A stretch of 64,000 nt of DNA from an uncultured Planctomycetia bacterium (lineage in GTDB: Bacteria > Omnitrophota > Gorgyraeia > 2-02-FULL-51-18): the NCBI GenBank assembly GCA_964606485.1, contig CAZSGP010000003.1, positions 270,479 to 334,478 of the forward strand. The letters run 5' to 3'. A model generated the notes under the pieces. The model saw nothing but the letters and a program-made list of their open reading frames with translations, was not told the origin of the DNA and made no database searches. The position numbers were made by a program, and so were the translations under genes. Positions 25,583 through 53,442 of this stretch are shown in pieces (within the stretch, counting starts at the first letter, position 1; the number at the start of each line of letters is the position of its first letter).

Positions 25583-27858
25583 CTTGGGTTAGGCAAGTAA
25601 GTTGCGCACAATCCCACCAAAACCAACGCCAGCACTGCCAGATGCGCCCATAGGCCAATGGTGTAGTATTTTGGCTCGAATTTAAACCACAGCTCGTGAG
25701 AGCCCGCTGATAAAAATACTCCCTGGAAAGCGCCGAGCGCGCGCTCAACCAAACTCTTCCGCCCGTCAGCCGTGACCGTCCAATTCTGGTCGTACGTTTG
25801 ATTACGCACAAGATAGCCGGCCTCCGGCATCGTCACTCGAAGCCGCACTCCGTCGTTTTGACGGTCAATAATTTCGGAGGAGACCTGTTTGGATGCAGAA
25901 AAATCAGCACCCTTATTAATATTTTTTAAAAAACTAAACTCCTGCTTCCTGGCGGGATTGCGAAAATATTCCTTTTCGGTGCCTCCGACTTTTAATCGGC
26001 CCTCGGAAGAAAAATCATTAATCGGAATATCGCTGAGCACATAATCCACTCCGAGAAAATTGATCAGATCCCGCTTCTCATTAAAGGCAGTTTCGCTAAA
26101 AGGCCTGCGCCCTAGAGAATCATCGCTCCCCCCCAAATCTTTAACCAGCGCGTAATAGTCTTTATCCAAAAGTGGCGAATAAGCATTCACGTTTGAGTGT
26201 CCGGTGGGTATGTTCATGCTTGGAGGGCAAAGGTCTTTGCCATTCTTTGAAATCTCAAGCCATTTACCTTGCGGAGCGCTAGCTAAAGGCCGTAAATCCA
26301 AAAAATTCCCACGCCCACAAATAATACTCGTGGCCTTGGCCTTAAAACCGGGTAAACCATAACCATAGACAACCAAATCTAAGCAGAGTAAAAATAAAAT
26401 TATACGGGCAGCGTTTATCCATGCAATCTTCCGTCTCCATACCACCGCAAAAACAAGAATCTGAATAAACGGCACAAGTATGACAGGATTTTGAAAAGGG
26501 TTTGTTGAGGCTCTAAGCTCAGCGATTGCTGTTTGAATTAAGCCAAAGTAGGTATCGATGCTTCGCTGATGAAAACTTTTACCAGCGACAAAGTTTTTAA
26601 TATACCAATGCCCGAACGCATCTAAAATCCCTGCTCCCACGTGCGCCATAGCAAAGAGAAGCGCGGCCATTGCGGCTACGCTCAGTGCCAAGATCAGAAA
26701 ACGCTGATGAATACGCTTTGTCCAATCAGCGGTCGGTTGCTTTAATTTCATCATGAAAGCATCGAAAGAAAATCCGGCAATCATCGACAGAAAAAAAGCC
26801 GCAAAAAATAGAAACTTCGAAGGATTACGCAGAAGCGATGCGATCGGAAATTTTATTAGGATCCAATAAAGCGGGTTAAAACGTCCAAGTGCCATAGCCA
26901 AACTAATCGCCAATAGAACCCACCACAATCCGGAGCGACCGCTTCTAGGTATCAACACTGCCAATGCAACAGGCGCAAACCCTATGTAAAAATTGCTGCT
27001 TAAAATTCCGTTCCAGCCGTAAAAAAATAAAAGGCTCAATGACCACGGTGCCATTGAACCCCAAAGTGCGAATTCCGGCTCCTGCAGGGTGCGCGTCGAA
27101 TGGGCCGCGAGCTCCAGCGTTGCCCAAATCTGAGGCAATCCAATTACCAATGCCGCTAACAAACTCCCCGCCAGCAAAACTGGGTTCGAACGTTTAAAAC
27201 CTCCGCTCAAATAATAATAAAACACCGCGAATCCAAACTGATACGCCGCCATCTGCACAAAACCCGCCAGCCATGTCTGTCCCACGATTAACGCCAGCCA
27301 GAACAATTCCCGAATACGATTAGTCTGGGAATAACGGTCAATCAAAAGAAGAATTAAAGGAAACCAGCAGAGCGTCTTCAGTGTTCCGAGCGTATAAAAA
27401 CCACCGGCCGATGCGCTGCCGAATGTAAAACAGATTGCCGTTAATGTGCCTGCTGCGCCCGACAAGCCCTTCGATCGTCCAAACATATACGCAAATGTGC
27501 CGCCCAATAAATAATGAATTAAAAAGTCGGTGTTATAGGCTATATGAAACGGTAGAAAGCGGAAAAGGGCCAGATTTGGAAGGTACAACATACCAGTTTG
27601 ACCCTCGGCAAAAAGTGGAAAACCTGACTGGATGAGCGGTGTCCACAAGAGTATTTTGCCGTGCTTCAGCGCCTCTGCGTAGGCCCAAGACCACGGATAA
27701 AATTGAGCCCCGTAGTCGCCCTTCACCAACCCTTGCGTGAAAGTTAAAAATGGCGCTACAAAAAATAGATATAGAACACCAAAGAAACTCAGAAAGACAG
27801 AGTGATCTTTAAGAAAATCCAAGAAACCGGATTTATTTTTTAATGCGGTAGAGTTCAA
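25579..27858 (-). CDS. YfhO-family membrane glycosyltransferase (GT-C-like)
   Basis: 759-aa polytopic protein with the YfhO-typical N-terminal region (GDYGAQFYPWSWAYAEAL) and a large C-terminal extracytoplasmic domain. Confidence 0.6.
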   Translation of the reverse strand: MNSTALKNKSGFLDFLKDHSVFLSFFGVLYLFFVAPFLTFTQGLVKGDYGAQFYPWSWAYAEALKHGKILLWTPLIQSGFPLFAEGQTGMLYLPNLALFRFLPFHIAYNTDFLIHYLLGGTFAYMFGRSKGLSGAAGTLTAICFTFGSASAGGFYTLGTLKTLCWFPLILLLIDRYSQTNRIRELFWLALIVGQTWLAGFVQMAAYQFGFAVFYYYLSGGFKRSNPVLLAGSLLAALVIGLPQIWATLELAAHSTRTLQEPEFALWGSMAPWSLSLLFFYGWNGILSSNFYIGFAPVALAVLIPRSGRSGLWWVLLAISLAMALGRFNPLYWILIKFPIASLLRNPSKFLFFAAFFLSMIAGFSFDAFMMKLKQPTADWTKRIHQRFLILALSVAAMAALLFAMAHVGAGILDAFGHWYIKNFVAGKSFHQRSIDTYFGLIQTAIAELRASTNPFQNPVILVPFIQILVFAVVWRRKIAWINAARIILFLLCLDLVVYGYGLPGFKAKATSIICGRGNFLDLRPLASAPQGKWLEISKNGKDLCPPSMNIPTGHSNVNAYSPLLDKDYYALVKDLGGSDDSLGRRPFSETAFNEKRDLINFLGVDYVLSDIPINDFSSEGRLKVGGTEKEYFRNPARKQEFSFLKNINKGADFSASKQVSSEIIDRQNDGVRLRVTMPEAGYLVRNQTYDQNWTVTADGRKSLVERALGAFQGVFLSAGSHELWFKFEPKYYTIGLWAHLAVLALVLVGLCATYLPNPS

Positions 27859-38165: not shown

Positions 38166-40151
38166 TTAAGCTAAAACGGCTTGAGCCGGTGTTGAATGAA
38201 CTTTGACAATTTCGTAGTTAGTGTTGCGCTGGAAAGGCGTTTTGCCAATTTCGGAAATCAAACGGATCGCTTCGGCTTTATCGACGCCAGAATAAAGCTT
38301 ATCACTCTTAGTAGCGCTTACCACATTTTCTTCCATTAGAATTCCGCCAAAATCATCAGCGCCAAAACGGAGTGCTGCTTGCGATAATTTTGGACCTTCG
38401 GTGACCCAACCTGCTTGAATATGTTGAATATTGTCGAGCATAATGCGTGACAGCGCCACCATGCGAAGGTATTCGCTTCCCGTGCGGCGCGGCATCAACA
38501 TCTGTGTAGACTCTGATTCAAAACTCCACGGAATAAACGCGCGGAAGCCACCAGTCCTGTCTTGTAGAGTGCGGTACTGGTCAAAATGAATCATCCGCTC
38601 TTCGATGGTTTCTCCAAGCCCGTAAACCATGGTGCTCGTGCTTTTTAAACCGGCGCGGTGGGCGGCTTCATGAACTTCAAAATAATCTTTCACGGTGGTT
38701 TTGAGCGGACTTACGATTTGACGCACGCGATCCACTAAAATCTCGGCTCCCCCACCCGGAAGACTGTTTAAACCCGCCTTTTTTAAGCGCGCAATCACTT
38801 CATCGATAGAAATTTTAGAAATTTTGGACATATGTTTAATTTCAGATGCTGAGAACGAGTGCACGTGAACCTGTGGAAACGTCGTGTGCACAAACGTCAC
38901 CAGATCTTCGTAGTATTCGATACCGAGCTCAGGATTGTGCCCGCCCTGCAGCAGCACTTGTGTTCCGCCAATATCCAAAAGCTCCTGAATTTTGTTGCGA
39001 ATTTCTTCCTGCGAGCGCACATAGCCTTCACTTTTGTCGCCCGGCAAACGATAAAACGCGCAGAACTTGCAAAGCGTGTAGCAGTAATTGGTGTAATTGA
39101 TATTGCGATCCACCACAAAAGTTGCTTGGGTCGCGGCATTCGGATTTTTTCGCTCGCAAATCTCATTTGCTACCGCACCCAATGCATGCAAACTCGCTTC
39201 ATAATAAAGTTTTACACCTTCTTGAATCGAAACCCGCTCGCCCTTCAAAGCTTTCCCGAGAATTTCCTCGCAAGATAGCGTGCTGTGCGATGACTGGGAA
39301 TGATCCTTAAAAAGAGACGGGAGCTCTTCTAAAACTACCGCTTCCTTTAAAAGACCGTATTCTGCAGCGTACTCCAAAAAGATTCTCAAACCATTTTTTA
39401 GCGAATCATCGAAATGATAACGCAGAACCGAAAAATAATCTTGAAGCACGGTGCGTGAAAGTTCGGTTTTTTCGAACGCCTTATTCAGAACCTCTTGTGA
39501 GTTGGCCTTACCCCAATCACGGGAACGTAAAATTCCTTCGTAAATAGCCGTTACGGCATCGGGGTATTGATCATAAAACTCACGGCGTACGGCCCAGAGC
39601 GCAAATACGAACGGTGTTTGGGTGGTCTCCTGCCAAACTTTGGCCAAATCAATAAAATGAAGCCCCGCGTCTTTTTTGTGGGATTCATACGCATGAAGCG
39701 CCTGATCGCCAATCAGCAGCACCGCATCGAAACCTTGCGGAATCTCTCCAAAATCGGAGGATGCAATAGTTAAATCCGGATCAAATCCGTGGCGCGTGCG
39801 GCACAGCACTTTTAAAAGCGCCGGCGTGGTGCTCCCCTTGTCAGTGATCGCTATCTTTTTTCCCTTAAGCTCGGCAAGTGTAAACCGGCTCACCAAAAGA
39901 ACACTATAAACCGCGCTTTCGGAGCTAATGGACAGATCTGGCAACAGATAAAATTTCTCCGAGTGAGACGCGTACCAAAAAGCTGAGATCGGACTAATAT
40001 CGAGATCCCCACTCAACATTTTTTCGTTGAGCTGCATCGGAGTGCCTTGAACGATTTGTGCGTTCAAACGGATTTTGGAATTTAAAATTCCCAAGTCCAC
40101 CGGCAAAGAATTGATGAATTCAATTGAGCCTACTTTTGCGAGGGATTTCAT
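38166..40151 (-). CDS. Fusion of an MqnA/MqnD-family (VitK2_biosynth) domain with a radical-SAM MqnE/MqnC-family domain (futalosine pathway)
   Basis: Single 661-aa ORF. The N-terminal ~270 aa are MqnA-like (GSIEFINSLPV..., ISPISAFWYA). The C-terminal ~380 aa are radical SAM with CYTLCKFCAF (CxxxCxxC) and the CofH/MqnC/MqnE-type C-terminus. Confidence 0.7.
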   Translation of the reverse strand: MKSLAKVGSIEFINSLPVDLGILNSKIRLNAQIVQGTPMQLNEKMLSGDLDISPISAFWYASHSEKFYLLPDLSISSESAVYSVLLVSRFTLAELKGKKIAITDKGSTTPALLKVLCRTRHGFDPDLTIASSDFGEIPQGFDAVLLIGDQALHAYESHKKDAGLHFIDLAKVWQETTQTPFVFALWAVRREFYDQYPDAVTAIYEGILRSRDWGKANSQEVLNKAFEKTELSRTVLQDYFSVLRYHFDDSLKNGLRIFLEYAAEYGLLKEAVVLEELPSLFKDHSQSSHSTLSCEEILGKALKGERVSIQEGVKLYYEASLHALGAVANEICERKNPNAATQATFVVDRNINYTNYCYTLCKFCAFYRLPGDKSEGYVRSQEEIRNKIQELLDIGGTQVLLQGGHNPELGIEYYEDLVTFVHTTFPQVHVHSFSASEIKHMSKISKISIDEVIARLKKAGLNSLPGGGAEILVDRVRQIVSPLKTTVKDYFEVHEAAHRAGLKSTSTMVYGLGETIEERMIHFDQYRTLQDRTGGFRAFIPWSFESESTQMLMPRRTGSEYLRMVALSRIMLDNIQHIQAGWVTEGPKLSQAALRFGADDFGGILMEENVVSATKSDKLYSGVDKAEAIRLISEIGKTPFQRNTNYEIVKVHSTPAQAVLA

Positions 40152-43028: not shown

Positions 43029-44483
43029 CTAGACTCCTAATTTGCTCCACAGCGCATCGACTGTTTTTTTGGTTGTGTCGTCCATCTGAATCTCTTCGGG
43101 CCACTGCCGAGCGTAGCCCTCATCTTTTCGTTTGGCCGTCGCATCAATTCCAAGTTTTGAACCAAAATCTCTTTCGGGTGAAGCGTGATTCAGGGTGTCC
43201 ACCGGCCCCTCCACCACAAACAAATCACGCTTAGGGTCAATATTGTTAAAAACGGTGAGTGCAACTTCGGAAAGATTGTGCACGTTTACGCTTTTGTCGA
43301 CGACAATCACCACTTTGGTGAACGACAACTGACCCAAACCCCAGATGGCATGCGCAACCTTGCGCGCTTGGTGAGGATACTGTTTGTCGATGGATACGAT
43401 CACGGCGTTGTTAAAGGTGCCTTCCATTGGGAAATTCATATCCACGATTTCCGGAATCTGTTTTTTTAAAATCGGCAAAAAACTTTTTTCAATCGCCTTG
43501 CCCATGTAATAGTCCTCCATCGGGGGTTTTCCGACAATTGTTGTCAGATAAATTGGATTTTTTCGCATCGTGATGCAGTGCACTTTGAAAGCAGGGAAAT
43601 ATTCGACCGGTGTGTAAACACCCGTATGATCGCCAAACGGACCTTCAATTCGCAAGTCGTCCGGATCCACCGTGCCCTCTAAAATAATTTCACTCTCAGC
43701 CGGAACGTCCACATCAATTGTTTTGCATTTGACGAGGTCGACACCTTTGCGCCTTAGAAAACCGCTGAATAGTAATTCGTCCATTCCAAATGGAAGCGGC
43801 ACCACACCTGCAAATACCGTCGCAGGGTCTCCACCCAAAGCCACGGCCACTTCCAGCTTCTTCCCCATTTTTTTTGCTTTTTGGGCGTGAATCGCGCCGT
43901 CCTTTTGCGTCTGCCAATGCATTCCGGTAGTCTTATCATCATACACATGCATTCGGTAAACGCCCATATTGCGCTCACCCGTTTCAGGGTCCTTCGTGCA
44001 AACGAGCGGAAGCGTGATAAACGGGCCACCATCATTCGGCCAACATTTTAAAATAGGGATCTGGGAGAGCCTGGGTTCATGAATCACAATTTCTTGGCAC
44101 GGCGCTGACTGAACGTGTTTGGGTGGAATCTTAGACAAATCTAAAAGCGTTCCGAGTAATTTTACTTTTCCCTCGAATGTTTTAGGCACACCTTTGATTT
44201 CTAGAATCTCATGAATGGACTTCGCAGCATCGTCGATGGTTTCGCAGCCCATGGCCATGGCCATTCGTTTGTAAGAACCAAAAGCATTGATGAGAACCGG
44301 AATGTTGTGGCCTTTGACGTTTTCAAAAAGCAAGGCTTTGCCGCCATCCGGGCTCTTAGAGACGCGGTCTGTGATCTCGGTGATTTCGAGCTCTGCTGAA
44401 ACTTCCTGGCGGACACGGACAAGTTCGCCGGCACGGTCTAGCGCTGAAATAAACTCTCGAAGATTTCGGTGGTGACCCGCCAT
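43029..44483 (-). CDS. ubiD: UbiD-family (prenylated-FMN dependent) decarboxylase
   Basis: 484-aa UbiD-like sequence located between UbiA/UbiX and UbiE homologues. Confidence 0.75.
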   Translation of the reverse strand: MAGHHRNLREFISALDRAGELVRVRQEVSAELEITEITDRVSKSPDGGKALLFENVKGHNIPVLINAFGSYKRMAMAMGCETIDDAAKSIHEILEIKGVPKTFEGKVKLLGTLLDLSKIPPKHVQSAPCQEIVIHEPRLSQIPILKCWPNDGGPFITLPLVCTKDPETGERNMGVYRMHVYDDKTTGMHWQTQKDGAIHAQKAKKMGKKLEVAVALGGDPATVFAGVVPLPFGMDELLFSGFLRRKGVDLVKCKTIDVDVPAESEIILEGTVDPDDLRIEGPFGDHTGVYTPVEYFPAFKVHCITMRKNPIYLTTIVGKPPMEDYYMGKAIEKSFLPILKKQIPEIVDMNFPMEGTFNNAVIVSIDKQYPHQARKVAHAIWGLGQLSFTKVVIVVDKSVNVHNLSEVALTVFNNIDPKRDLFVVEGPVDTLNHASPERDFGSKLGIDATAKRKDEGYARQWPEEIQMDDTTKKTVDALWSKLGV

Positions 44484-45199
44484 TACTTCGTTGCCTGATA
44501 AAGCGTTACGGTTCCCAACATAAAGGAACGAAAGCGAATATCACGAAAACCTGCCTTTTTTAATTTCTCGATAAATTCCGGAACTTTCACAAATCGCTCC
44601 GCAGAATCCGGCAGATATGCGATTGGGTACACTTTTCCAAAAAGAAGCCGCCCGTATAACGCGGTCATGGTGTGCATGTAAAATCTAAAAAATTTCACGC
44701 GCCATTCTTGCTTGGGTGCCGTGATGTCTAGAAAACTAATTTGGCCGCCTACTTTAAGCGAAGCGCTCACCCCTTTTAAAATCGCATCTATGTTTTGATA
44801 GAGATTTCTTAAAACAAATCCAGAGACCACGAGGTCAAACGGTTGTTCGTTGGCAATCGGCAATTCCTCGGCTTTCATGAGAACAAAGCGCGGCTTTGAG
44901 CCAATTTTTGACTCGAGCGACTGCCCCCTCTGATTGGCCACTTCCAGCATCTTGTCCGAGAAATCTATTCCGACAACGCTGCCCTCTTTACCAACAAGAG
45001 GCACGGCTCCCAGCGACAAATCTCCCGTTCCACAACCCAGATCCAAAACGCGCATTCCCGGTTTTAGAGGCTTCAACGTCTCTTTTCTCCAACCCGTGGC
45101 GAGGCCCATGCTCGTTAAGTGATTAAAAAGATCGTATTTGAGCGCAAGATTATCGAACATGGTCTTGATGTATCTAGAATCAGGTTGACTGGACGGCAT
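44483..45199 (-). CDS. ubiE: Demethylmenaquinone/ubiquinone C-methyltransferase (UbiE/MenG family)
   Basis: UbiE-type sequence with VLDLGCGTGDL SAM motif; 238 aa. It is the first gene of the minus-strand menaquinone operon. Confidence 0.8.
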   Translation of the reverse strand: MPSSQPDSRYIKTMFDNLALKYDLFNHLTSMGLATGWRKETLKPLKPGMRVLDLGCGTGDLSLGAVPLVGKEGSVVGIDFSDKMLEVANQRGQSLESKIGSKPRFVLMKAEELPIANEQPFDLVVSGFVLRNLYQNIDAILKGVSASLKVGGQISFLDITAPKQEWRVKFFRFYMHTMTALYGRLLFGKVYPIAYLPDSAERFVKVPEFIEKLKKAGFRDIRFRSFMLGTVTLYQATK

Positions 45200-45216
45200 C
45201 GTTTTTTTATGCGAAA

Positions 45217-46404
45217 ATGTGGCAATATCCTACTATGGAAGAACTTAGATTACAAGAAGAACTCAAGAAAACCCGCCGCGAACTGCAGCTTTTTTATGAA
45301 ATCGGCAACCTCATCCGGAAAACACTTTTTTTGGATGAAGTTATTTATTTAATTTTAAGCGCCATCACGAGTCACGAGGGAATGGGATTTAATCGCGCTG
45401 TTCTTTTTCTCGTCGACGACACTGGCACTTTGCTGGAAGGAAAAATGGGCATCGGTCCAAAAGACCCTCAGACATCGAAAGCCACATGGAAAACGATTGA
45501 ACAAAACCACATCACCCTCGAAGGTCTGCTGGATGTTTATCATAAGGCCAACAAAGTAATTGATCCGGAACTCAACGAAACGATTCGCCAGGTCAAGCTT
45601 CCGATTCAGAAAGATTTTGGAATTCTTCCCAAAACAATTATTTACGACAACCCATCTCTGATTGAAAAAGAAGATGCGAACCACGAGTTGTGTGATATGA
45701 AGCTGCAGGAGCTCGGCGCTGAGCAATTTGTGACAGTTCCCTTGCGCGGCAAGGACCGCGTTATTGGAACTCTGTTTATTGACAATGTCTCCACTCGCAA
45801 AGCCATCTCCGAAAATGATGTGCAGCGTCTCATGATGCTCGCCAATCACGCAGGGCTTGCCCTTGAAAATGCCCTCACCTTTAGCGCGCTAGTCGTCAAT
45901 TCGCAACAGGATTCCCTGACCAAACTATGGAATCATGGCCACTTTCAGAAACTTCTTCATGAGTGTCTCATGGACTCCAAAATTCACAAGCGCCCACTCA
46001 GTCTCGTTATTTTTGACGTTGATAATTTCAAAGAGTACAACGATAGCTTCGGTCATCCGGCTGGCGATCGCGCCTTGGAACTGATTGCCCTCAACGCAAA
46101 AACCGTGATGCGACGCATGGATTATTTGGCGCGCTACGGCGGGGAAGAATTTGCGGCTGTTTTGCCGGGGACCTCTAAAGAGGAAGCGATTAAGCTCGCG
46201 GAACGCCTGAGAGATGGCATTGAAAAAGAAACTTCGAGCAAATCCATCGCCCCACGCAAAGTAACCGTTTCGGTGGGAGTGGCCTCATATCCGGAAGATG
46301 CGGATGAAAAAGAGAAATTGATTTTCTGCGCCGATGGCGCCCTGTACGAAGCTAAGAAATTAGGAAAGAATCAAACCCGCGCTTATAAAAAGCCGACCCG
46401 CTAA
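45217..46404 (+). CDS. GAF-GGDEF diguanylate cyclase
   Basis: N-terminal GAF-like region and a C-terminal GGDEF domain with an intact RYGGEEF active-site motif. Confidence 0.75.
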   Translation: MWQYPTMEELRLQEELKKTRRELQLFYEIGNLIRKTLFLDEVIYLILSAITSHEGMGFNRAVLFLVDDTGTLLEGKMGIGPKDPQTSKATWKTIEQNHITLEGLLDVYHKANKVIDPELNETIRQVKLPIQKDFGILPKTIIYDNPSLIEKEDANHELCDMKLQELGAEQFVTVPLRGKDRVIGTLFIDNVSTRKAISENDVQRLMMLANHAGLALENALTFSALVVNSQQDSLTKLWNHGHFQKLLHECLMDSKIHKRPLSLVIFDVDNFKEYNDSFGHPAGDRALELIALNAKTVMRRMDYLARYGGEEFAAVLPGTSKEEAIKLAERLRDGIEKETSSKSIAPRKVTVSVGVASYPEDADEKEKLIFCADGALYEAKKLGKNQTRAYKKPTR

Positions 46405-49358
46405 ACCAGCACTTCTTCTTTGTCTTTATCCTTCACAGCGTCTTTTTCTTTGGCCTTCTCAGAAAACTTCACAGAAACAATGCGACTTACTCCGGTTTGA
46501 GCCATGGTGATGCCGTACATGGCATCCGCCAAACTCATGGTGCGCTTGTTGTGAGTGATTAAAATAAATTGGGACCCCGTAATAAATTCCTTTAGCACGT
46601 TGCAGAAGCGTTCTACATTGGTTTCGTCAAGTGGTGCATCGATTTCGTCGAGCACACAGAACGGGCTAGGACGCACTTTGAAAAGTGCAAAAACCATGGC
46701 AACGGCCGTCAGCGCTTTTTCTCCACCCGACAACAGGGAAATATTTTGTAATTTCTTTCCGGGAGGACGCGCGACAATTTCAATACCGCTTTCTAAGATA
46801 TTATCCGCATCAAGCAGTACGAGCTCCGCGGTGCCACCATTAAAAAGGATTTTATAGTACTCGGAAAAATATTGCTGAACCTTTTCAAAGGTTTCCGCAA
46901 AAAGCTCACGGGTTGTGCGGTTAATTTTTAAGATCGCCTTATGCAGATCCTCTTTGGCTTGAACTAGATCCTGCTCTTGTTTGGTGAGGAAATCGTATCG
47001 CTCACGCATCTCATCATACTCTTGCATGGCCGCTAAGTTCACTGGGCCGAGCTTTTGAATTTTATCTTTTTGGGTTTGAATTTGAGCTCTCGCCTCATCC
47101 AGGTCTGAGATTTCCGATTCGGGCAGCGTGGCGAGCGCCTCAATCGTGAGCTCAAAGTTATACGCATTAAAAACGCGGTCACGCAAACGGCTAATCTCAA
47201 ACTGATCTTTGGCGTTTTCAAGTTCAGCGTGATGAGCTTTGTCGCGGCACTCTTTGATAAAATCTTCTTTTTCGTCTTTTTGGGTTTCTAAAAGCTCGAG
47301 ACGCGCAGAGGCGTCTTCCAGATCCCGCCGCAATCCTTCGCTCTGACGCAGAATTTCATCGCGTTCCTCGGCGGCTTTCATAGACTCTTCTTCGAGCGCC
47401 AGATTTTCCTCTTCCAACTGGTCTTTCTTGGAAACGGCCTCCATGACTTCTTTTTCAAAATTTAGGATTTGTGCTTCTTCCGAACGCCTGGAACTTTCAA
47501 CCCAAGCGCGATCTTTTTCGATTTGCTCACACTTGGCACTGCGACTCGCCTGCTCTGAACGCGCTTGGGTGAGACGAATCAACTTTTCGTCCTTCAATAC
47601 TGCGCTCTGGCTAAAACTCTCTTCGATTTTTAAGATTTGTGCGGCGATATTCCGTTCTTCTTCAAACACCTGATTCAAGGACTGTGAAATGGTCTGCTCT
47701 TTTTCAAGGAGAGCATTTTCTTCATTTAGCACCTGCTGAATTTCACCAGCAATTACCGCAAGCTTGGCTTCGAGCTTGTTTCGAAGCTCGGTTAACGCTT
47801 TTTGGCGGGTTTGGTATTCGAGTGTTTGTGCATGCAAGCCAACCACGTCGTCCGTGAAACGCTGAATCTCACTCTCAATTAAAAGCTCTTCTTCGGCGCC
47901 AGGCGACTGCTTGCCAGCCTGGAAAAGATTTTGGAAAATTTCAATCAGCTTCGTTTTAAAATTTTTAAAGCGGTCGTTTAAGCGCTCCACTGGCGTCTGG
48001 ACGGGCAACGACCCCTCTTGGCCCGCATTCTCAAAGAGAGGGAGACCGGAGCCGATGCTCGCTTCGCGGATCTCTGCTAAAAGCGCCTCTTCTTCGGACT
48101 TGATACGCTTCAATCTTCCCTGTAAACCAGCTGTCAAAGAGGTTGCGCGGGAAAACTCTGACTGCCAGCGGTTTTTCTCGTCACCCAATTCGTTAAGCCT
48201 TACACGCAAAGCGTGCCGCTCGGATTCGGTTGAGGCGACTTGGCTTTGAAATTGATTAAAATCTGATTCTGCCGATTGCAATACAACAACCGCTTCTTCC
48301 TCTTCGCCTTTCAGCATTGAAAGCTGTGCATCCAGACGCTCAAATTCCTGCGAAAGTCCGGCAGCGCGGGTTCGGGTGTCTTCAATTTGCCGCGTCAAAT
48401 TTTCACGACGCTCCACAAGCTCGCCGATGCGTTCGCGATTCAAAAGAACGCGGTCGCGGCTTTTCTGCACACGCGCATCGATTTCAAAAATTTTAGACTG
48501 ACTAAGGCTCGCCTGCACCTCGAGCTCATGAAGCGCTTCTTTTTGTTCGTGATAGCTCTGCGCAAGTTCCGTCAAACCATTTTCTGCATTTGACACTTCT
48601 TCGCGAAGGGCTTCCAGATTTTCCTGGGCAAATTTAAGCTTCGCCTCAAGGCTTAAAAATTCCTTACTCGCTACAGCAATTTCGAGATTCTTTAATTTTT
48701 CAAACTCAATTTTATAGCTTTCGGCTTTTTTGGCTTGGCGCTCCATCGACCCAATCTGGCGCTTCACTTCCTGGATGATGTCATTGACGCGGAGTAAGTT
48801 TTGTTCGGTTTGCTCAAGCTTACGGAGCGCTTCTTTTTTCTTGGCCTTAAATTTGGTAATACCGGCAGCTTCTTCGAAAATCTCGCGGCGCTGATCAGGC
48901 TTTGCGTTGATCACCTGATCCATCTTCCCCTGCTCGATGATGGAATAACCTTCCGTTCCAATACCGGTTCCCAAGAGAAGCTCTTGAATATCTTTTAAGC
49001 GAACCACATTTTTGTTGAGAAGGTATTCACTGTCGCCTGAGCGATACAAGCGGCGCGTAATCACCACTTCATCGTAATCAATGGCGAGCAGTCGGGTTTC
49101 GTTGGCAAGGGTTAGTGAAACTTCGGCGAGATTTTGAGCATCGCGGCTAGAGCTACCGTTAAAAATAACATCTTCCATGCTAGAGCCGCGCAAAGACTTA
49201 GCGCTTTGCTCACCAAGCACCCACCGAATGCCGTCGGAAATATTGGATTTGCCGCAACCATTCGGCCCGACAATGGCGGTGACACCCGGCTCAAATAAAA
49301 TCTCGGTTTTATCGGCGAAGGACTTGAATCCGAAGATTTCTAATTTTTTAAAATACAA
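46401..49358 (-). CDS. smc: SMC-like chromosome segregation ATPase (compact, hinge apparently absent)
   Basis: Walker A GPNGCGKSN; SMC C-terminal motifs LGPVNLAAMQEYDEMRERY, LSGGEKALTAVA (signature) and DEIDAPLDE (Walker B); long coiled-coil regions. It is only 985 aa, and the mid-region (~430-500) lacks the glycine-rich SMC hinge motifs. TTG start at 49358 with an AAGGAG RBS. Confidence 0.7.
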   Translation of the reverse strand: MYFKKLEIFGFKSFADKTEILFEPGVTAIVGPNGCGKSNISDGIRWVLGEQSAKSLRGSSMEDVIFNGSSSRDAQNLAEVSLTLANETRLLAIDYDEVVITRRLYRSGDSEYLLNKNVVRLKDIQELLLGTGIGTEGYSIIEQGKMDQVINAKPDQRREIFEEAAGITKFKAKKKEALRKLEQTEQNLLRVNDIIQEVKRQIGSMERQAKKAESYKIEFEKLKNLEIAVASKEFLSLEAKLKFAQENLEALREEVSNAENGLTELAQSYHEQKEALHELEVQASLSQSKIFEIDARVQKSRDRVLLNRERIGELVERRENLTRQIEDTRTRAAGLSQEFERLDAQLSMLKGEEEEAVVVLQSAESDFNQFQSQVASTESERHALRVRLNELGDEKNRWQSEFSRATSLTAGLQGRLKRIKSEEEALLAEIREASIGSGLPLFENAGQEGSLPVQTPVERLNDRFKNFKTKLIEIFQNLFQAGKQSPGAEEELLIESEIQRFTDDVVGLHAQTLEYQTRQKALTELRNKLEAKLAVIAGEIQQVLNEENALLEKEQTISQSLNQVFEEERNIAAQILKIEESFSQSAVLKDEKLIRLTQARSEQASRSAKCEQIEKDRAWVESSRRSEEAQILNFEKEVMEAVSKKDQLEEENLALEEESMKAAEERDEILRQSEGLRRDLEDASARLELLETQKDEKEDFIKECRDKAHHAELENAKDQFEISRLRDRVFNAYNFELTIEALATLPESEISDLDEARAQIQTQKDKIQKLGPVNLAAMQEYDEMRERYDFLTKQEQDLVQAKEDLHKAILKINRTTRELFAETFEKVQQYFSEYYKILFNGGTAELVLLDADNILESGIEIVARPPGKKLQNISLLSGGEKALTAVAMVFALFKVRPSPFCVLDEIDAPLDETNVERFCNVLKEFITGSQFILITHNKRTMSLADAMYGITMAQTGVSRIVSVKFSEKAKEKDAVKDKDKEEVLV

Positions 49359-49390
49359 ACGCGCTCCTTGGACAAACTTTAATTTTTAGG

Positions 49391-49451: not shown

Positions 49452-50228
49452 CTAGAATCCGATGATATTGTAGCCAGAATCCACAAAAATGACTTCGCCG
49501 GTAATTCCGCGGCTCAAGTGGCTAGCTAGGAACAAAGTGGTGTCGCCGACTTCCTCGGGCTCCGTGTTGCGTCGAAGCGGAGATTTTTCACGCGCAAGTC
49601 TCAAAATATCCTGAAGTCCGGAAATGCCGCGTGCTGCAAGCGTGTTGATGGGGCCGGCTGAAATAGCATTTACACGAATATTTTTAGGGCCCAAATCAAA
49701 CGCCAAGTATTTTACGCTCATCTCAAGTGCTGCTTTAGCAACGCCCATCACATTGTAATGCGGCATCACGCGCTCACCACCCAAATACGTGAGCGTCACT
49801 ACACTTCCGCCGCCTCTTTTTTCAAAGAGCGGAACAAATTTTTGGCAGACCCCTGTGAGCGAATAAGCGCTAACGCCGAGTGCCGTGTCAAAACCATCTT
49901 TTTTGGTGCGAAAATAATCCGTCTCCAAATCTTCCGCTTTAGCGAAAGCGACGGCGTGCAGAATAAAATCAATTCCACCCCAAGCCTTATCGATTTCCGT
50001 CACTAGCGCATCCACTTGCGCCTCCTGCATCACATCACATGGAAAGACGAGCGAGTTCGGAAGCGTCTTAGCAAGTTCTTCCACATTTTCCTTGAGCCGC
50101 TCCCCTTGATAGGAAAAAACGATTTGAGCGCCTTCGCGCGACAAACTCTTTGCGGCCGACCAAGCGATACTGCGCTTATTGGCGACGCCTAAAATTAATC
50201 CTTTTTTACCTTCCATTAGATTTGCCAT
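49452..50228 (-). CDS. fabI: Enoyl-[acyl-carrier-protein] reductase (NADH), FabI
   Basis: FabI-type SDR sequence (GLILGVANKRSIAW..., catalytic Tyr/Lys region). Start is taken at MANLMEGKKG (50228), which abuts the fabF stop; the ORF extends to 50276. Confidence 0.8.
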   Translation of the reverse strand: MANLMEGKKGLILGVANKRSIAWSAAKSLSREGAQIVFSYQGERLKENVEELAKTLPNSLVFPCDVMQEAQVDALVTEIDKAWGGIDFILHAVAFAKAEDLETDYFRTKKDGFDTALGVSAYSLTGVCQKFVPLFEKRGGGSVVTLTYLGGERVMPHYNVMGVAKAALEMSVKYLAFDLGPKNIRVNAISAGPINTLAARGISGLQDILRLAREKSPLRRNTEPEEVGDTTLFLASHLSRGITGEVIFVDSGYNIIGF

Positions 50229-50229
50229 A

Positions 50230-51474
50230 TTAGCCCCTGAATTTTTTAACGATAACCGACGTATTGTGCCCGCCAAATCCTAGTGAATTCGATAGACAAG
50301 CTTCAACCTTAGTCTGGCGTGCGGCGTTTGGCACATAATCCAAATCACATTCCGGATCGGGTGCGGTCAGATTCATCGTCCCGTGAAGTGTTTGATGCTC
50401 GAGCGACAAACAGCAGGCTACAAATTCAATTCCACCGGCGGCACCTAGCGTGTGACCTGTCATCGACTTTGTGGAATTGACCTGAAGTTTTTTAGCGTGA
50501 TCACCAAATGTTTTCTTGATCGCCAATGTTTCGATTTTATCGTTAAGATCCGTTGAGGTTCCGTGCGCGTTGATGTATTGAATATCAGAAGGATTCATCT
50601 TGGCGTCTCTTAGCGCAAGATTCATGCAGTGGGAAGCGCCCTCTCCGTCCGGATTTGGGGCGGTCATGTGGTACGCGTCCCCATTCAAAGCGTAACCCAC
50701 AAGCTCTCCGTAAATTTTGGCACCGCGTTTTTTAGCGTGCTCTAATTCTTCAAGCACCACCACACCTGCACCTTCGCCCATCACGAATCCATCGCGCTCT
50801 TTGTCAAACGGCCGCGAGGCGGCGTGCGGGTCATCATTTCTCGTAGAAAGCGCTTTGAGCGCGCAGAATCCGCCAATTCCCAAAGGGGTTATGCAGCTCT
50901 CAGTTCCACCTGCAATCATGACTTTAGCTTGGCCGTGTTGAATGATGCGAAAGGCCTCGCCAATCGAATGAGTTCCCGTAGCGCACGCTGTGACGACCGC
51001 TAAATTAGGACCCTTAAAATTCAGGAGAATTGAAATCCAGCCGGAGGCCATATTGATAATTAGAAGCGGGATCATGAATGGAGAAAATTTCTCCGGTCCC
51101 TTGTTTAGATAAATCGAATGCGTTTCTTCGACAATGCGCAGACTTCCAATGCCAGAACCAACCAGAACGCCGAGCTCCCGAGGATCTTCCTTGGAAACAT
51201 CAAGCCCCGAATCTTTAAAAGCCTCCAACGCCGCAGTCACCGCAAACTGAGCAAACTGCTCCATGCGGCGGGACTCTTTTAAAGGAATGGTTGCTTTGGG
51301 ATCGTAGCCTTTGACTTCCGCGGCAATTTTAGCGTCGAATCTCTGAGGGTCAAAATAGGAGATTTTTTCGACACCACTTTTACCGGAAAGAAGAGACTTC
51401 CAAAACTCTGGGACGTTGTTGCCCACAGGCGTGACAGCGCCAAGACCTGTAACAACAACCCGTGAATAGGACAT
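50230..51474 (-). CDS. fabF: Beta-ketoacyl-ACP synthase II
   Basis: RVVVTGLGAVTPVGN N-terminus, active-site Cys region (AVVTACATGTHS) and the His-His region; 414 aa. Confidence 0.85.
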   Translation of the reverse strand: MSYSRVVVTGLGAVTPVGNNVPEFWKSLLSGKSGVEKISYFDPQRFDAKIAAEVKGYDPKATIPLKESRRMEQFAQFAVTAALEAFKDSGLDVSKEDPRELGVLVGSGIGSLRIVEETHSIYLNKGPEKFSPFMIPLLIINMASGWISILLNFKGPNLAVVTACATGTHSIGEAFRIIQHGQAKVMIAGGTESCITPLGIGGFCALKALSTRNDDPHAASRPFDKERDGFVMGEGAGVVVLEELEHAKKRGAKIYGELVGYALNGDAYHMTAPNPDGEGASHCMNLALRDAKMNPSDIQYINAHGTSTDLNDKIETLAIKKTFGDHAKKLQVNSTKSMTGHTLGAAGGIEFVACCLSLEHQTLHGTMNLTAPDPECDLDYVPNAARQTKVEACLSNSLGFGGHNTSVIVKKFRG

Positions 51475-51499
51475 TCGTGGGGTCTAAAAAGCCTGGAGT

Positions 51500-51748
51500 T
51501 TATTTAGAAGCTTTGCTGGCTTTTTCTTCGATATATCGGACAGCTTCGCCGACATTCGTCATCTTTTCGGCGTCTTCATCAGGAATCTCGATACCGAATT
51601 CTTCTTCCAAAGCCATCACAAGCTCAACCGTATCCAGCGAATCTGCTCCCAAATCATCTACAAAAGAAGCGGTGTCACTGACTTCTTCAACCTTAACACC
51701 TAGCTGTTCGGCAATAATGGACTTCACTTTCGCTGCTACTTCGGCCAT
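51500..51748 (-). CDS. acpP: Acyl carrier protein
   Basis: 82 aa with [20 protein letters not shown] around the phosphopantetheine Ser. A strong AAGGAGG RBS lies upstream. Confidence 0.9.
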
Positions 51749-51776
51749 CGATTCCTCCTTTTACCGCGTTTGAAAT

Positions 51777-52535
51777 TTATTGCATCACCATTCCACCGTC
51801 TACGGTGATGACTTGCCCTGTTACGTAATTACTTTCGTCGCTAGCCAGATAAAGCGCTGTTTTTGCAACGTCCAACGGTTTACCGAAGCACGCCGCCGGA
51901 ATATTTTTGAGTATTGCTTGTTTGGTCTCCTGGCTTAAAGCGTCTGTCATTTCCGTTTCAATGAACCCAGGAGCGATTGCGTTCACTAAAACGTTGCGCG
52001 AACCTAATTCTTTGGCGAGTGACTTGGTTAGAGCGATGATCCCCGCTTTGCTAGCGGCGTAATTGGCCTGCCCGGCATTGCCAGTCAATCCAATCACGGA
52101 AGCCATATTAATAATGCGCCCCGCTCTTTGTTTCATCATTGCTTTTGAAGCGGCGCGCATGCATAAAAATGTGCCTTTGAGATTGGTGTTAAGCACTTCA
52201 TCCCATTGGTCTTCCGACATTCTAACAAAGAGCCCGTCGCGTGTGATTCCCGCGTTGTTGACGAGTATATCAATGCGACTATAATTGTCAAGAGTTTTGT
52301 CCGTCATTTCCTCCACTTTGGCCGCGTTTTTCACGTCCAATTCAAAAACCATCGGCGACTTTCCGCCGAATGCCGTAATTTCTTGGGCAAGTTTTTGGAG
52401 TGCGTCCAAACTTCTGGCTGTAAGCACGAGCTGGGCGCCCTCTTTGGCAAAAAGGAGCGCAATCTCGCGGCCAATGCCGCGACTCGCACCCGTTACGATT
52501 GCAACCTTCCCCTCTAATTTTTTAGTCGAGGACAT
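51777..52535 (-). CDS. fabG: 3-oxoacyl-ACP reductase
   Basis: GKVAIVTGASRGIGREIA Rossmann motif with the SDR catalytic region. Start is taken at the internal Met MSSTKKLEGK (52535); the ORF extends to 52583. Confidence 0.85.
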   Translation of the reverse strand: MSSTKKLEGKVAIVTGASRGIGREIALLFAKEGAQLVLTARSLDALQKLAQEITAFGGKSPMVFELDVKNAAKVEEMTDKTLDNYSRIDILVNNAGITRDGLFVRMSEDQWDEVLNTNLKGTFLCMRAASKAMMKQRAGRIINMASVIGLTGNAGQANYAASKAGIIALTKSLAKELGSRNVLVNAIAPGFIETEMTDALSQETKQAILKNIPAACFGKPLDVAKTALYLASDESNYVTGQVITVDGGMVMQ

Positions 52536-53442
52536 GGAAGTCTCCAATCGAGCTGAGTGAAATAGTTTCGACCGTAGGATCAATTTTTTTAAGCAGTCCC
52601 TTTAATACCTTGCCCGGCGAAAATTCAACAAACGTTTTGACACCATTGGAAATCATAAAACGCATCGAGTCTTCCCAGAGCGTGCGGTGATTCATTTGAA
52701 GCACCAGATTCTGCTTAATTTTAATGGGGTCATTTTCAATATTGGCCGTCAGATTGCTCACTACTGGAATGAGCGGTTTTTGAACGGGTACAATTTCAAG
52801 CGCCTTCTCAATTTTTTGACAGGCGGAGTTCATGCAGGAAGAGTGAAACCCACCGCTAACTTCCAATGGAATTACTTTGCGGGCACCCGCCTCGCGCAAT
52901 TTTTCAATGGCCACCTCTACTTTGTGTTTGAATCCAGAGATAACAATCTGACCGGGCGCGTTTAGGTTCCCCACCTCGGCGCCGGTTTCATGGCAAATCT
53001 TTTCCACAATGGCAAGTTCGAGACTCAGCACCGCAGCCATCATTCCAGGCTTCTCGGCGGCTGCTTCGTCCATAAAAAGTCCACGCGAACGCACAAAACG
53101 AACGCCATCATCAAAACTAATAGCCCCTGCCGCGCAAAGTGCGGTGGCTTCGCCTAGTGAAAGTCCGGCGGTAAACTTAGGGTTATAATTATTGGCCTTA
53201 GCATAGGTTTTAAAAACTGCCAGTGCGGCCATGCTGGTCGTAAATATAGCCGGCTGGCTATAGCGAGTCTTTGTGAGCTTGTCTTCGGGTCCGTCAAAAC
53301 AGGCGCTCTTCACATCAAAATCTAAAAGTTCAGCGGCGCGGTCAAAAATCTTTTTAGCTTCGGGATGGTGATCATAGAGATCCTTGCCCATTCCCACAAA
53401 TTGCGAGCCCTGGCCCGGAAATAAAAAGGCTGCGTCTACCAC
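52522..53442 (-). CDS. fabD: Malonyl-CoA:ACP transacylase
   Basis: AFLFPGQGSQFVGMG and GLSLGE motifs. The likely start is a GTG at 53442 overlapping the fabH stop; the longest ORF begins with TTG at 53463. Confidence 0.85.
   Translation of the reverse strand: MVDAAFLFPGQGSQFVGMGKDLYDHHPEAKKIFDRAAELLDFDVKSACFDGPEDKLTKTRYSQPAIFTTSMAALAVFKTYAKANNYNPKFTAGLSLGEATALCAAGAISFDDGVRFVRSRGLFMDEAAAEKPGMMAAVLSLELAIVEKICHETGAEVGNLNAPGQIVISGFKHKVEVAIEKLREAGARKVIPLEVSGGFHSSCMNSACQKIEKALEIVPVQKPLIPVVSNLTANIENDPIKIKQNLVLQMNHRTLWEDSMRFMISNGVKTFVEFSPGKVLKGLLKKIDPTVETISLSSIGDFHVLD

What the first reader, a model, noticed from the sequence alone, without database searches (positions are those of the whole stretch)
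46401..49358. 985-aa SMC-like ATPase with canonical head motifs but no recognisable hinge domain
- **Canonical parts.** The N-terminal Walker A (GPNGCGKSN), the C-terminal SMC signature (LSGGEKALTAVA), Walker B/D-loop (VLDEIDAPLDE) and the SMC-specific LGPVNLAAMQEYDEMRERY motif are all present, separated by two long coiled-coil arms.
- **Anomaly.** The central region (about residues 430-500: …ASIGSGLPLFENAGQEGSLPVQTPVERLNDRFKNFKTKLIEIFQNLFQAGKQSPGAEEELL…) is only about 70 aa. It lacks the glycine-rich motifs of the roughly 150-aa SMC hinge, and there is no Rad50/SbcC-type CxxC zinc hook.
- **Implication.** Either this is a minimal SMC with an unconventional dimerisation/DNA-entry module, or an SMC-like paralogue.
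Basis: seen in the sequence. Interest (0 to 1): 0.5.

Follow-up and report, generated by a model that had tools for sequence, protein, structure and literature searches.

The report
Hinge-less SMC condensin of Omnitrophota
This is the bacterium's ordinary chromosome-organising SMC gene, but in this lineage the "hinge" domain that normally joins two SMC molecules has been replaced by a short helical cap, a natural case showing the hinge fold is not indispensable.

Summary
ORF 46401-49358 (-) encodes a 985-aa SMC with intact ATPase motifs. No hinge is detectable by Pfam, a lineage-specific hinge HMM, profile-profile comparison or PDB search. There is no CxxC.

It is neither an assembly artefact nor an extra paralogue:
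- About 42 protein clusters (90% identity) from independent assemblies, those that carry a name being Omnitrophota, share the architecture.
- The gene sits in the same fabG-acpP-fabF-fabI-smc-(GAF-GGDEF)-ubiE slot as the canonical 1205-aa smc of a related Omnitrophota genome.
- It scores above the TIGR02168 SMC cutoff.
- Heads, necks and arms are as conserved as in hinged relatives.

About 230 residues (the hinge plus distal arm) are missing. In their place is a family-specific apex: a loop with a PLF motif, a 25-residue amphipathic basic helix (residues 456-480), and a short loop. AlphaFold2 models this part confidently (pLDDT 91).

I infer, but have not shown, that this cap takes over dimerisation and perhaps DNA binding.

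Hinge-less SMCs are not unique. A 2025 paper describes a marine clade. I also found large hinge-less classes in other Omnitrophota (~1100 aa) and in Leptospirales-type spirochaetes (~915 aa).

Verdict: real, a new variant of a known kind, moderately interesting.

The parts
46401..49358 (-). smc gene, 985 codons plus stop; hinge-less SMC
   Evidence: ORF. SMC_N 1.3e-70 with no PF06470. TIGR02168 at 860 bits against a cutoff of 567.
49364..49368 (-). Shine-Dalgarno AGGAG, 5 nt upstream of the TTG start (49356-49358)
   Evidence: Read directly from the sequence.
48861..49358 (-). N-terminal half of the ATPase head (residues 1-166), including Walker A GPNGCGKSN (49242-49268) and the Q-loop IEQGK (48924-48938)
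   Evidence: Motif positions. Mean pairwise identity is 83% within the family and 81% to hinged relatives. Matches the Bs Smc head structures 5xg3 and 3zgx.
48051..48860 (-). N-terminal coiled-coil arm helix, residues 167-436 (~270 aa)
   Evidence: AF2 predicts one continuous helix, with most of the arm (about residues 170-430) at pLDDT ~75-91; the distal part is confirmed in the mid-region model.
47994..48050 (-). Apex loop, residues 437-455, with the semi-conserved (L/P)PLF motif (LPLFE = 48030-48044)
   Evidence: Non-helical and low pLDDT. L441 is hydrophobic in 86% and F442 in 74% of family members.
47919..47993 (-). Apex helix, residues 456-480 (PVERLNDRFKNFKTKLIEIFQNLFQ). It is amphipathic and basic, and is the lineage-specific replacement for the hinge.
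   Evidence: pLDDT ~95 in the mid-region model. Positions 460/464/467/471/474/478 are hydrophobic in 98-100% of members, with further hydrophobics at 472/475/479. K/R is conserved at 463/465/468/470/476/481. The element is present in all 42 hinge-less relatives. Nothing outside the family matches it among 1.84 billion representatives.
47898..47918 (-). Short loop, residues 481-487 (AGKQSPG), between the apex helix and the C-arm
   Evidence: AF2 secondary structure.
47049..47897 (-). C-terminal coiled-coil arm, residues 488-770. It begins with the conserved EE..L(D/E).EI..F..E segment (F501 in 40 of 42) and includes a variable loop at 734-752.
   Evidence: AF2 helices 488-733 and 753-770. Conservation.
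46404..47048 (-). C-terminal half of the head (residues 771-985): GPVNL junction, signature LSGGEKALTAVA (46698-46733), Walker B/D-loop VLDEIDAPLDE (46623-46655), H-loop ITHNKRT (46539-46559)
   Evidence: Motif positions. Identity is 84% within the family and 83% to hinged relatives.
49452..52583 (-). Upstream syntenic block fabG-acpP-fabF-fabI, which defines the canonical smc slot
   Evidence: ORFs. FabI Pfam match. The same order flanks the hinged smc in L001 and the hinge-less smc in L003 and L004.
44483..46404 (.). Downstream syntenic neighbours: GAF-GGDEF gene (45217-46404, +; convergent, overlapping the smc stop by 4 nt) and ubiE (44483-45199, -)
   Evidence: Pfam GGDEF/GAF. The same neighbours occur in L001 and L003.

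Best explanation
**What it is.** This is the single-slot, orthologous smc (condensin) gene of an Omnitrophota bacterium.

**What changed.** In its lineage about 230 residues were lost: the whole hinge plus roughly 55-60 residues from the distal end of each arm. They were replaced by a ~50-residue apex consisting of:
- a 19-residue loop carrying a PLF motif
- a 25-residue amphipathic, basic helix
- a 7-residue loop

**Predicted architecture.**
- The ATPase head, the kleisin-binding neck and ~270-residue antiparallel arms (about 40 nm) are intact.
- From the helix order and loop lengths I infer that the apex helix packs back on the arm tips as a three-helix cap; model coordinates could not be inspected.

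**Proposed mechanism.** The cap exposes a second conserved hydrophobic stripe (residues 472, 475, 479) and a conserved Lys/Arg face. I propose that two such caps associate to give the constitutive dimerisation normally supplied by the hinge. The basic face would substitute for the hinge's DNA-binding patch. The complex would then work as a shorter Smc-ScpAB-type ATP-driven DNA-organising ring.

**Shown:** absence of the hinge, orthology by position, conservation, predicted apex secondary structure.

**Inferred:** three-helix packing of the apex, apex dimerisation, DNA binding by the apex, partnership with ScpAB.
For: **No hinge:**

**Family and deletion boundaries**
- 42 hinge-less relatives of 821-994 aa sit among ~1200-aa hinged SMCs; every hit that carries a name is Omnitrophota/Omnitrophica, apart from one labelled Eisenbacteria.
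- The deletion maps to residues ~445-675 of hinged P0047.

**Identical synteny in independent NCBI, ENA, JGI and Logan assemblies**
- Hinged: L001.
- Hinge-less: L003, L004, L005.
- tblastn confirmation.

**SMC identity:** TIGR02168 scores 860 bits against a cutoff of 567.

**No relaxation of constraint**

| Region | Hinge-less group | Hinged group |
|---|---|---|
| Heads | 0.83 / 0.84 | 0.81 / 0.84 |
| Necks | 0.82 / 0.73 | 0.84 / 0.72 |
| Arms | 0.39 / 0.41 | 0.40 / 0.40 |

**Apex anatomy**
- AF2 full length and residues 390-550 (pLDDT 90.9).
- Heptad a/d hydrophobics are 98-100% conserved, with an extra hydrophobic stripe and a conserved K/R face.
- The motif is shared by every hinge-less relative, including the 821-aa forms.

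**Precedent (Buermann et al. 2017, PMC5344682)**
- B. subtilis Smc stays functional when its hinge is swapped for the unrelated Rad50 zinc hook.
- Mini-Smc with 253-267-aa arms is functional.
Against: - No multimer modelling or coordinates were available, so dimerisation through the apex is untested.
- The apex has no detectable relative of known function.
- ScpA and ScpB are not in the 64-kb window, judged by eye from the translations. The rest of the genome could not be searched, so a second SMC or MksBEF elsewhere is not excluded.
- The full-length AF2 model is poor in the heads (pLDDT below 50).
- The phylogeny does not resolve whether the hinge was lost once.
Confidence: 0.6

Rival explanations
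1. It is a functional orthologous SMC, but the apex does not dimerise. The two subunits are held together only by zipped arms, engaged heads and the kleisin. The amphipathic basic helix instead binds DNA, or the membrane.
For: - The helix has a strongly conserved K/R face and F/W/L residues, typical of nucleic-acid- or membrane-binding amphipathic helices.
- No structural match to any known dimerisation module.
Against: - The a/d heptad pattern and the confident AF2 model of the three helices suit a bundle element.
- Loss of hinge dimerisation inactivates B. subtilis Smc (statement in PMC5344682), so some apex joint is expected.
- The extra hydrophobic stripe would otherwise be solvent-exposed.
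Confidence: 0.25
2. It is an SMC-like paralogue with a different job (repair, defence or plasmid handling), and a canonical smc lies elsewhere in the genome.
For: - Only 64 kb of the genome could be inspected.
- NCBI labels some relatives merely 'AAA family ATPase'.
Against: - It occupies exactly the fab-smc-GGDEF-ubiE slot that holds the canonical smc in a hinged relative.
- It scores above the SMC equivalog cutoff, while Rad50, RecN and other models fall far below theirs.
- Constraint is unchanged on heads, necks and arms.
- There are no nuclease, Mks or Jet partner genes beside it.
Confidence: 0.08
3. Without a hinge, the two long helices pair between molecules rather than within one. This would give an antiparallel two-headed rod, with one composite head at each end.
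For: The short flexible central linker (residues 437-455 and 481-487) would permit either topology. AF2 monomer modelling cannot distinguish them.
Against: - AF2 places the N- and C-arm tips and the apex helix together as one compact hairpin tip at high confidence.
- ATP hydrolysis in SMCs needs two heads to engage, which a two-ended rod prevents unless higher oligomers form.
- The arm lengths are matched for an intramolecular hairpin.
Confidence: 0.05
4. It is an assembly artefact, or a decaying pseudogene that lost its middle.
For: None beyond the unusual length.
Against: - The reading frame is intact, with SD and start.
- About 42 diverged (50-56% identical) relatives from NCBI, ENA, JGI and Logan assemblies have the same boundaries.
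- All catalytic motifs are invariant.
Confidence: 0.01

Closest known systems
Canonical bacterial Smc of Smc-ScpAB condensin (TIGR02168; B. subtilis Smc, PDB 5xg3/3zgx heads)
   Same: - The head carries all ATPase motifs.
- The neck and the long antiparallel arms are present.
- The genomic slot downstream of the fab/acpP genes is shared with hinged Omnitrophota smc.
- It scores above the equivalog cutoff.
   Different: - There is no hinge domain at all.
- The arms are ~270 aa, against ~330 aa in the hinged relative P0047.
- A 25-residue amphipathic helix cap sits at the apex.
Engineered B. subtilis Smc(Zh) and Mini-Smc (Buermann et al. 2017, PMC5344682)
   Same: - The hinge is replaced by an unrelated small apex module, and the arms are shortened.
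- The paper reports functional arm lengths of 253-267 aa, close to the ~265-270 aa estimated here.
   Different: - Those are laboratory chimeras using a Zn-binding CxxC hook.
- Here the replacement is natural, Cys-free and all-helical, and its dimerisation is unproven.
'Hinge-less' SMC clade of ocean metagenomes assigned to Actinobacteria (Environ Microbiome 2025;20:65, PMC12153180)
   Same: SMC-type head and coiled coil, no hinge, no CxxC, a monophyletic environmental clade, and probably not a paralogue.
   Different: - It comes from a different phylum and habitat.
- The apex profile of the present family finds no relatives outside its own family.
- Positional orthology with a hinged smc is shown here but was not shown there.
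~915-aa PF06470-less SMC of Leptospirales-type Spirochaetota (e.g. Turneriella parva, P0262; L006)
   Same: A colinear hinge-less SMC, 34% identical over residues 1-966. It is annotated 'chromosome segregation SMC family protein'.
   Different: - It has its own central motif G(L/F)..ILF(E/D)K.G(I/V)H..KE.LD.
- It is not hit by the Omnitrophota apex profile, so it is presumably an independent loss.
~1100-aa PF06470-less SMC class of other Omnitrophota (P0134/L013 and more than 118 clusters)
   Same: Same phylum. The GAF-GGDEF neighbour is shared for L008, L011 and L015. No recognisable hinge.
   Different: - It keeps full-length arms.
- It carries a conserved, probably beta-rich 60-100-aa module (DPVVEGRF...TGIIGK...YEI.YETK.VELD).
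- hhalign against the helical apex gives probability 0.5%.
Rad50/SbcC, RecN, MukB/MksB
   Same: ABC-type head plus a coiled coil, with a small or absent hinge.
   Different: - No CxxC hook.
- Rad50 and RecN models score 41-56 bits, against cutoffs of 400-1087.
- No MukB-type Pfam hit.
- No Mre11/SbcD or MukEF-type neighbours.

Membership tests
Bacterial Smc (TIGR02168, Smc-ScpAB condensin) | ABC ATPase head with Walker A, Q-loop, signature LSGGE, Walker B, D-loop and H-loop | tested here: met
   All motifs are present and invariant or nearly invariant (at least 90%) across the family. SMC_N 1.3e-70. Bs Smc head structures match at 1e-138.
Bacterial Smc (TIGR02168, Smc-ScpAB condensin) | Whole-protein score above the curated equivalog cutoff | tested here: met
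   860.3 bits against a cutoff of 567.35, in two stretches that skip the hinge part of the model.
Bacterial Smc (TIGR02168, Smc-ScpAB condensin) | Two long helices forming an antiparallel coiled-coil arm | tested here: met
   AF2 helices 167-436 and 488-733, most of both arms at pLDDT ~75-91. The tip is modelled at pLDDT 90.9.
Bacterial Smc (TIGR02168, Smc-ScpAB condensin) | Central hinge dimerisation domain (PF06470) with conserved glycines | tested here: not met
   No hit at E<=10. Lineage-specific hinge HMM gives E=1.3. hhalign probability 0.7%. No hinge structure in the PDB search.
Bacterial Smc (TIGR02168, Smc-ScpAB condensin) | Occupies the genomic position of smc in related genomes (orthology by position) | tested here: met
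   The fabG-acpP-fabF-fabI-smc-GGDEF-ubiE order is identical to that around hinged P0047.
Bacterial Smc (TIGR02168, Smc-ScpAB condensin) | Kleisin ScpA and kite ScpB partners encoded in the genome | not testable with these tools
   No candidate was seen in the 64-kb window on reading the ORF translations by eye; they were not scanned with ScpA/ScpB profiles. Neck and head conservation is unchanged, which is indirect support only.
Bacterial Smc (TIGR02168, Smc-ScpAB condensin) | Constitutive homodimerisation at the apex | not testable with these tools
   Only single-chain AF2 was available. A conserved extra hydrophobic stripe on the apex helix is suggestive only.
Rad50/SbcC | CxxC zinc hook at the coiled-coil apex | tested here: not met
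   No CxxC anywhere. There is no cysteine between residues 36 and 609.
Rad50/SbcC | Score above the family cutoffs, and an Mre11/SbcD nuclease neighbour | tested here: not met
   Rad50 models score 41-56 bits against cutoffs of 700-1087. The neighbours are fabI and a GGDEF protein.
RecN | TIGR00634 above cutoff; about 550 aa with a short coiled coil | tested here: not met
   43.9 bits against a cutoff of 407.85. The protein is 985 aa.
Published hinge-less SMC clade (PMC12153180) | SMC-type head and arms, no hinge, no CxxC | tested here: met
   Description.
Published hinge-less SMC clade (PMC12153180) | Belongs to that monophyletic (actinobacterial, marine) clade | tested here: inconclusive
   Those sequences are not held here. 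Nearly all the closest named relatives are Omnitrophota. The apex profile finds nothing outside its own family. Membership is therefore unlikely but was not tested directly.

The most novel reading that the evidence does not exclude
Omnitrophota (and, independently, Leptospirales-type spirochaetes) run their only condensin without any hinge. In this lineage, either a bare helical cap is sufficient for ring closure and DNA handling, or no closed apex is needed at all. Together with the graded series seen here (hinged ~1200 aa; beta mini-module ~1100 aa; helical cap ~985 aa; helical cap with shortened arms ~821-843 aa), this would mean that hinge-dependent steps in current SMC models are dispensable in nature. 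Those steps include DNA entry through the hinge and hinge-DNA contacts during loop extrusion. It would also mean that arm length can be tuned downward, possibly in line with very small cells.
Probability: 0.15. Interest if true: 0.8.

Novelty: new variant of a known kind. Interest (0 to 1): 0.5.

Why it matters
**Background.** The hinge is treated as a defining and essential part of SMC proteins. It provides dimerisation and DNA binding, and in some models acts as a DNA gate. Engineering in B. subtilis showed that its fold can be swapped for another module.

**What this gene adds.** It shows evolution doing the same swap in the orthologous, presumably only, condensin of a whole lineage. The replacement is a minimal helical apex with shortened arms.

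**What it makes testable.** It provides a compact natural construct for asking three questions:
- What must an SMC apex minimally provide?
- Do hinge-DNA contacts matter for loading and translocation?
- How do arm-length classes evolve?

**Practical point.** Annotation pipelines label these proteins inconsistently, as 'AAA family ATPase', 'hypothetical protein' or 'SMC family protein'.

Tried and rejected
**Searches that led nowhere**
- The look-up of encoding contigs for the window's own protein found nothing on record.
It could not show whether hinge-less genomes hold a second smc.
- A PDB profile search of the apex and Foldseek of the apex model gave only generic coiled-coil noise. The best values were E=0.003 (keratin) and 0.08.
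- HMMs of the apex searched against hinged SMCs gave no significant hit. Only the conserved EE..L..EI..F..E part aligned weakly, just after the hinge. The origin of the apex helix stays open.
- I looked for ScpA/ScpB by eye in the translations of the window ORFs of at least 150 aa and saw no candidate.

**Analyses that did not resolve the question**
- The full-length AF2 model has unusable heads (pLDDT below 50), so it was not used for fold search.
- The NJ tree suggested one main hinge-less clade with five outliers. Bootstrapping gave no support either way: 0/200 for all hinge-less proteins and 5/200 for the main clade. I therefore make no claim of single or multiple loss from the tree. The shared apex motif is the only argument for one origin.

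**Considered and rejected**
- Rad50/SbcC, RecN and MukB identity.
- A degenerate hinge remnant at the apex.
- A frameshifted hinge in another reading frame.

Full report
**1.

The ORF at 46401..49358 on the minus strand is 985 codons long. An AGGAG Shine-Dalgarno lies 5 nt upstream of its TTG start. Residue 1 aligns with residue 1 of all homologues.

Several independent tests find no hinge:
- Pfam reports SMC_N spanning residues 3-958, and no SMC_hinge even at E<=10.
- NCBIfam's SMC equivalog TIGR02168 scores 860 bits against a cutoff of 567. It does so in two stretches, the first mapping protein 2-432 onto model 1-432 of 1181.
- A hinge HMM built from the hinged Omnitrophota SMCs among the hits and run without filters scores 1e-64 on hinged controls. 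On this protein it gives E=1.3, away from the apex.
- Profile-profile comparison gives 0.7% probability.
- PDB sequence search finds Smc heads (5xg3, 3zgx; 1e-138) but no hinge structure.
- No frame of the 64-kb window encodes a hinge or a second SMC.
- There is no CxxC.

**2. It is neither an artefact nor a one-off**

The identical protein is in NCBI on a 399-kb contig. Among the best 120 database clusters, 42 are hinge-less relatives of 821-994 aa, and the full-length ones (about 950-990 aa) are 46-57% identical to this protein. They come from NCBI, ENA, JGI and Logan assemblies; those that carry a name are Omnitrophota/Omnitrophica, apart from one labelled Eisenbacteria. They are interleaved with ~1200-aa Omnitrophota SMCs that do carry PF06470.

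Alignment shows one common gap. Relative to hinged P0047 (1205 aa), residues ~445-675 are missing.

**3. It is the orthologue, not an extra paralogue**

Hinged P0047 sits in the order plsX-fabH-fabD-fabG-acpP-fabF-fabI-smc-(GAF-GGDEF, opposite strand)-ubiE-ubiA (GCA_022072175.1, a 1.59-Mb contig). The window has the same order around its gene. So do the hinge-less relatives on a 220-kb ENA contig, a 153-kb JGI contig and a Logan contig, apart from the JGI and Logan loci, where a 105-aa ORF stands in place of the GGDEF gene.

Mean pairwise identity by region is the same in the hinge-less group and in its nearest hinged group, and cross-group identity is equally high:

| Region | Hinge-less | Hinged |
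|---|---|---|
| Heads | 0.83 / 0.84 | 0.81 / 0.84 |
| Necks | 0.82 / 0.73 | 0.84 / 0.72 |
| Arms | 0.39 / 0.41 | 0.40 / 0.40 |

Selection on the ATPase, the kleisin-binding neck and the arms has therefore not relaxed.

**4. What stands in place of the hinge**

AlphaFold2 on the 42-sequence alignment gives this layout for the full-length protein:
- one helix, residues 167-436
- a loop, 437-455
- a helix, 456-480
- a loop, 481-487
- a helix, 488-733

The heads are poorly modelled. A second job on residues 390-550 gives the same layout at mean pLDDT 90.9 and pTM 0.65.

The chain order and loop lengths fit a three-helix tip in which the N-arm end and the apex helix run parallel, both antiparallel to the C-arm start.

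Conservation across the family:
- Apex-helix positions 460, 464, 467 (F/W), 471, 474 and 478 are hydrophobic in 98-100% of members. This is a 3-4 heptad pattern.
- Positions 472, 475 and 479 add a second hydrophobic stripe (71-95%).
- Positions 463, 465, 468, 470, 476 and 481 are K/R in 69-98%.
- A PLF motif sits in the loop.
- F501 at the C-arm start is present in 40 of 42.

The motif LExK(I/V)RxFKxK(L/I)..I plus EE..L(D/E).EI..F..E occurs in every hinge-less relative, including the 821-843-aa forms with shorter arms.

A profile of this region searched against 1.84 billion representatives finds only this family: three hits at or below 1e-30, two of them fragments. The remaining hits are coiled-coil noise. 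Nothing in the PDB resembles it by sequence or fold. It has no detectable counterpart in hinged SMCs.

**5. Arm length**

The N-arm is about 270 residues and the C-arm about 264 helical residues, roughly 40 nm. In hinged P0047 the arms are ~330 residues.

Buermann et al. 2017 (PMC5344682) report natural arm-length modes at 238, 341 and 515 aa. They also report functional shortened B. subtilis Smc at 253-267 aa. The value here lies near that short functional window. My estimate is crude, however, and I do not lean on it.

**6. Mechanism**

*Shown:*
- The hinge is absent.
- A conserved helical module stands in its place at the apex.
- Heads, necks and arms are intact.
- The gene is orthologous by position.

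*Inferred:*
- Three-helix packing of the apex.
- The cap's extra hydrophobic stripe mediates apex-to-apex dimerisation.
- Its basic face substitutes for hinge-DNA contacts.
- The protein therefore still forms an Smc-ScpAB-type complex.

Two statements in PMC5344682 make this plausible. B. subtilis Smc with its hinge replaced by the unrelated Rad50 zinc hook grows normally. Loss of hinge dimerisation, by contrast, is lethal for function.

The rivals are an apex that does not dimerise (a DNA- or membrane-binding helix), a paralogue with another job, and an intermolecular two-headed rod. They are listed with their tests.

**7. Comparison with what is known**

Natural hinge-less SMCs have been described once in the library I could search. 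That case is a marine clade assigned to Actinobacteria, without CxxC, and argued not to be a paralogue (PMC12153180). I found no paper on Omnitrophota or Leptospira SMC lacking a hinge.

While following leads I found that the phenomenon is broader:
- **A ~1071-1166-aa class in Omnitrophota.** All 120 best clusters lack PF06470, and several lie on Mb-size contigs. This class keeps full arms but carries a conserved small module (DPVVEGRF...TGIIGK...YEI.YETK.VELD) unrelated to both the hinge and the helical cap.
- **A ~897-932-aa class in Leptospirales-type Spirochaetota.** It includes the complete genome of Turneriella parva and has its own central motif.

The present family is thus one of several independent hinge replacements. 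It is distinguished by its all-helical apex and by demonstrable positional orthology to a hinged smc.

**8. Limits**

- Only 64 kb of the genome could be read, so scpA, scpB or a second SMC elsewhere cannot be assessed.
- The genome-contig scan saturated.
- The NJ tree with bootstraps does not resolve single versus multiple loss.
- No multimer prediction was possible.

**9. Verdict**

The finding is real and correctly described. The 'minimal SMC' reading is supported over the 'paralogue' reading. It is a new variant of a kind that is already known but poorly characterised. It is of moderate interest to SMC biology, and of more interest if the apex proves either sufficient or unnecessary for ring closure.

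Noticed in passing
L013:6001-9378 (+) = P0134; also L008, L010, L011, L015, L018, L023, L031: This is a second and much larger PF06470-less SMC class in Omnitrophota, 1071-1166 aa. All 120 best clusters lack the hinge, and several lie on 0.8-1.6-Mb contigs. The arms are full length. A conserved 60-100-aa central module (DPVVEGRFI..V.P...QTGIIGK.K.V ... YEI.YETK.VELDL, with a variable insert) replaces the hinge. hhalign shows no relation to the hinge (1.1%) or to the helical apex (0.5%).
   Followed up: partly
L006:6001-8754 (+) (Spirochaetota MAG JBMOPL010000010.1); P0254-P0373, including P0262 (Turneriella parva): A ~897-932-aa SMC family without PF06470 is widespread in Leptospirales-type spirochaetes, including a cultured species with a complete 4.38-Mb genome. 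It has its own conserved central motif G(L/F)..ILF(E/D)K.G(I/V)H..KE.LD and no CxxC. I found no paper describing it.
   Followed up: partly
P0050 (840 aa), P0054 (821 aa; cluster includes OGW81369.1, labelled 'hypothetical protein'), P0060 (843 aa); also P0055 (874 aa) and P0059 (911 aa): These are members of the same hinge-less family with further, matched shortening of both arms. They lack roughly P0047 residues 367-425 and 726-799 but keep the apex motif. This points to stepwise arm reduction.
   Followed up: partly
window 8216-10444 (-): A 742-aa fusion of UDP-GlcNAc 2-epimerase (Epimerase_2), NeuB and a SAF domain. It lies inside a long glycan-biosynthesis region (roughly 542-38155) with several PMT/YfhO-like membrane proteins, DegT aminotransferases, GT2 enzymes and acyltransferases. 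Apart from the fusion and two membrane proteins (PMT at 17295-19160, YfhO at 25579-27858), these assignments were made by eye from the translations.
   Followed up: partly
window 38166-40151 (-): A 661-aa fusion of a VitK2_biosynth (MqnA-type) domain with a radical-SAM CofH/MqnC-type domain. In the related loci L001, L003 and L004 these are separate genes of ~290 and ~365 aa.
   Followed up: partly
window 46401-46404: The convergent smc (-) and GAF-GGDEF (+, 45217-46404) genes overlap by 4 nt at their stop codons, leaving no room for an intergenic terminator.
   Followed up: no
window 43029-44483 (-), compared with L001: A UbiD-family decarboxylase sits between ubiE and ubiA in the window and in the hinge-less loci L003 and L004. 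It is absent from that position in the hinged locus L001.
   Followed up: no
window 2255-3553 (-): A 432-aa ORF within the glycan cluster has no Pfam family at E<=1e-5.
   Followed up: no
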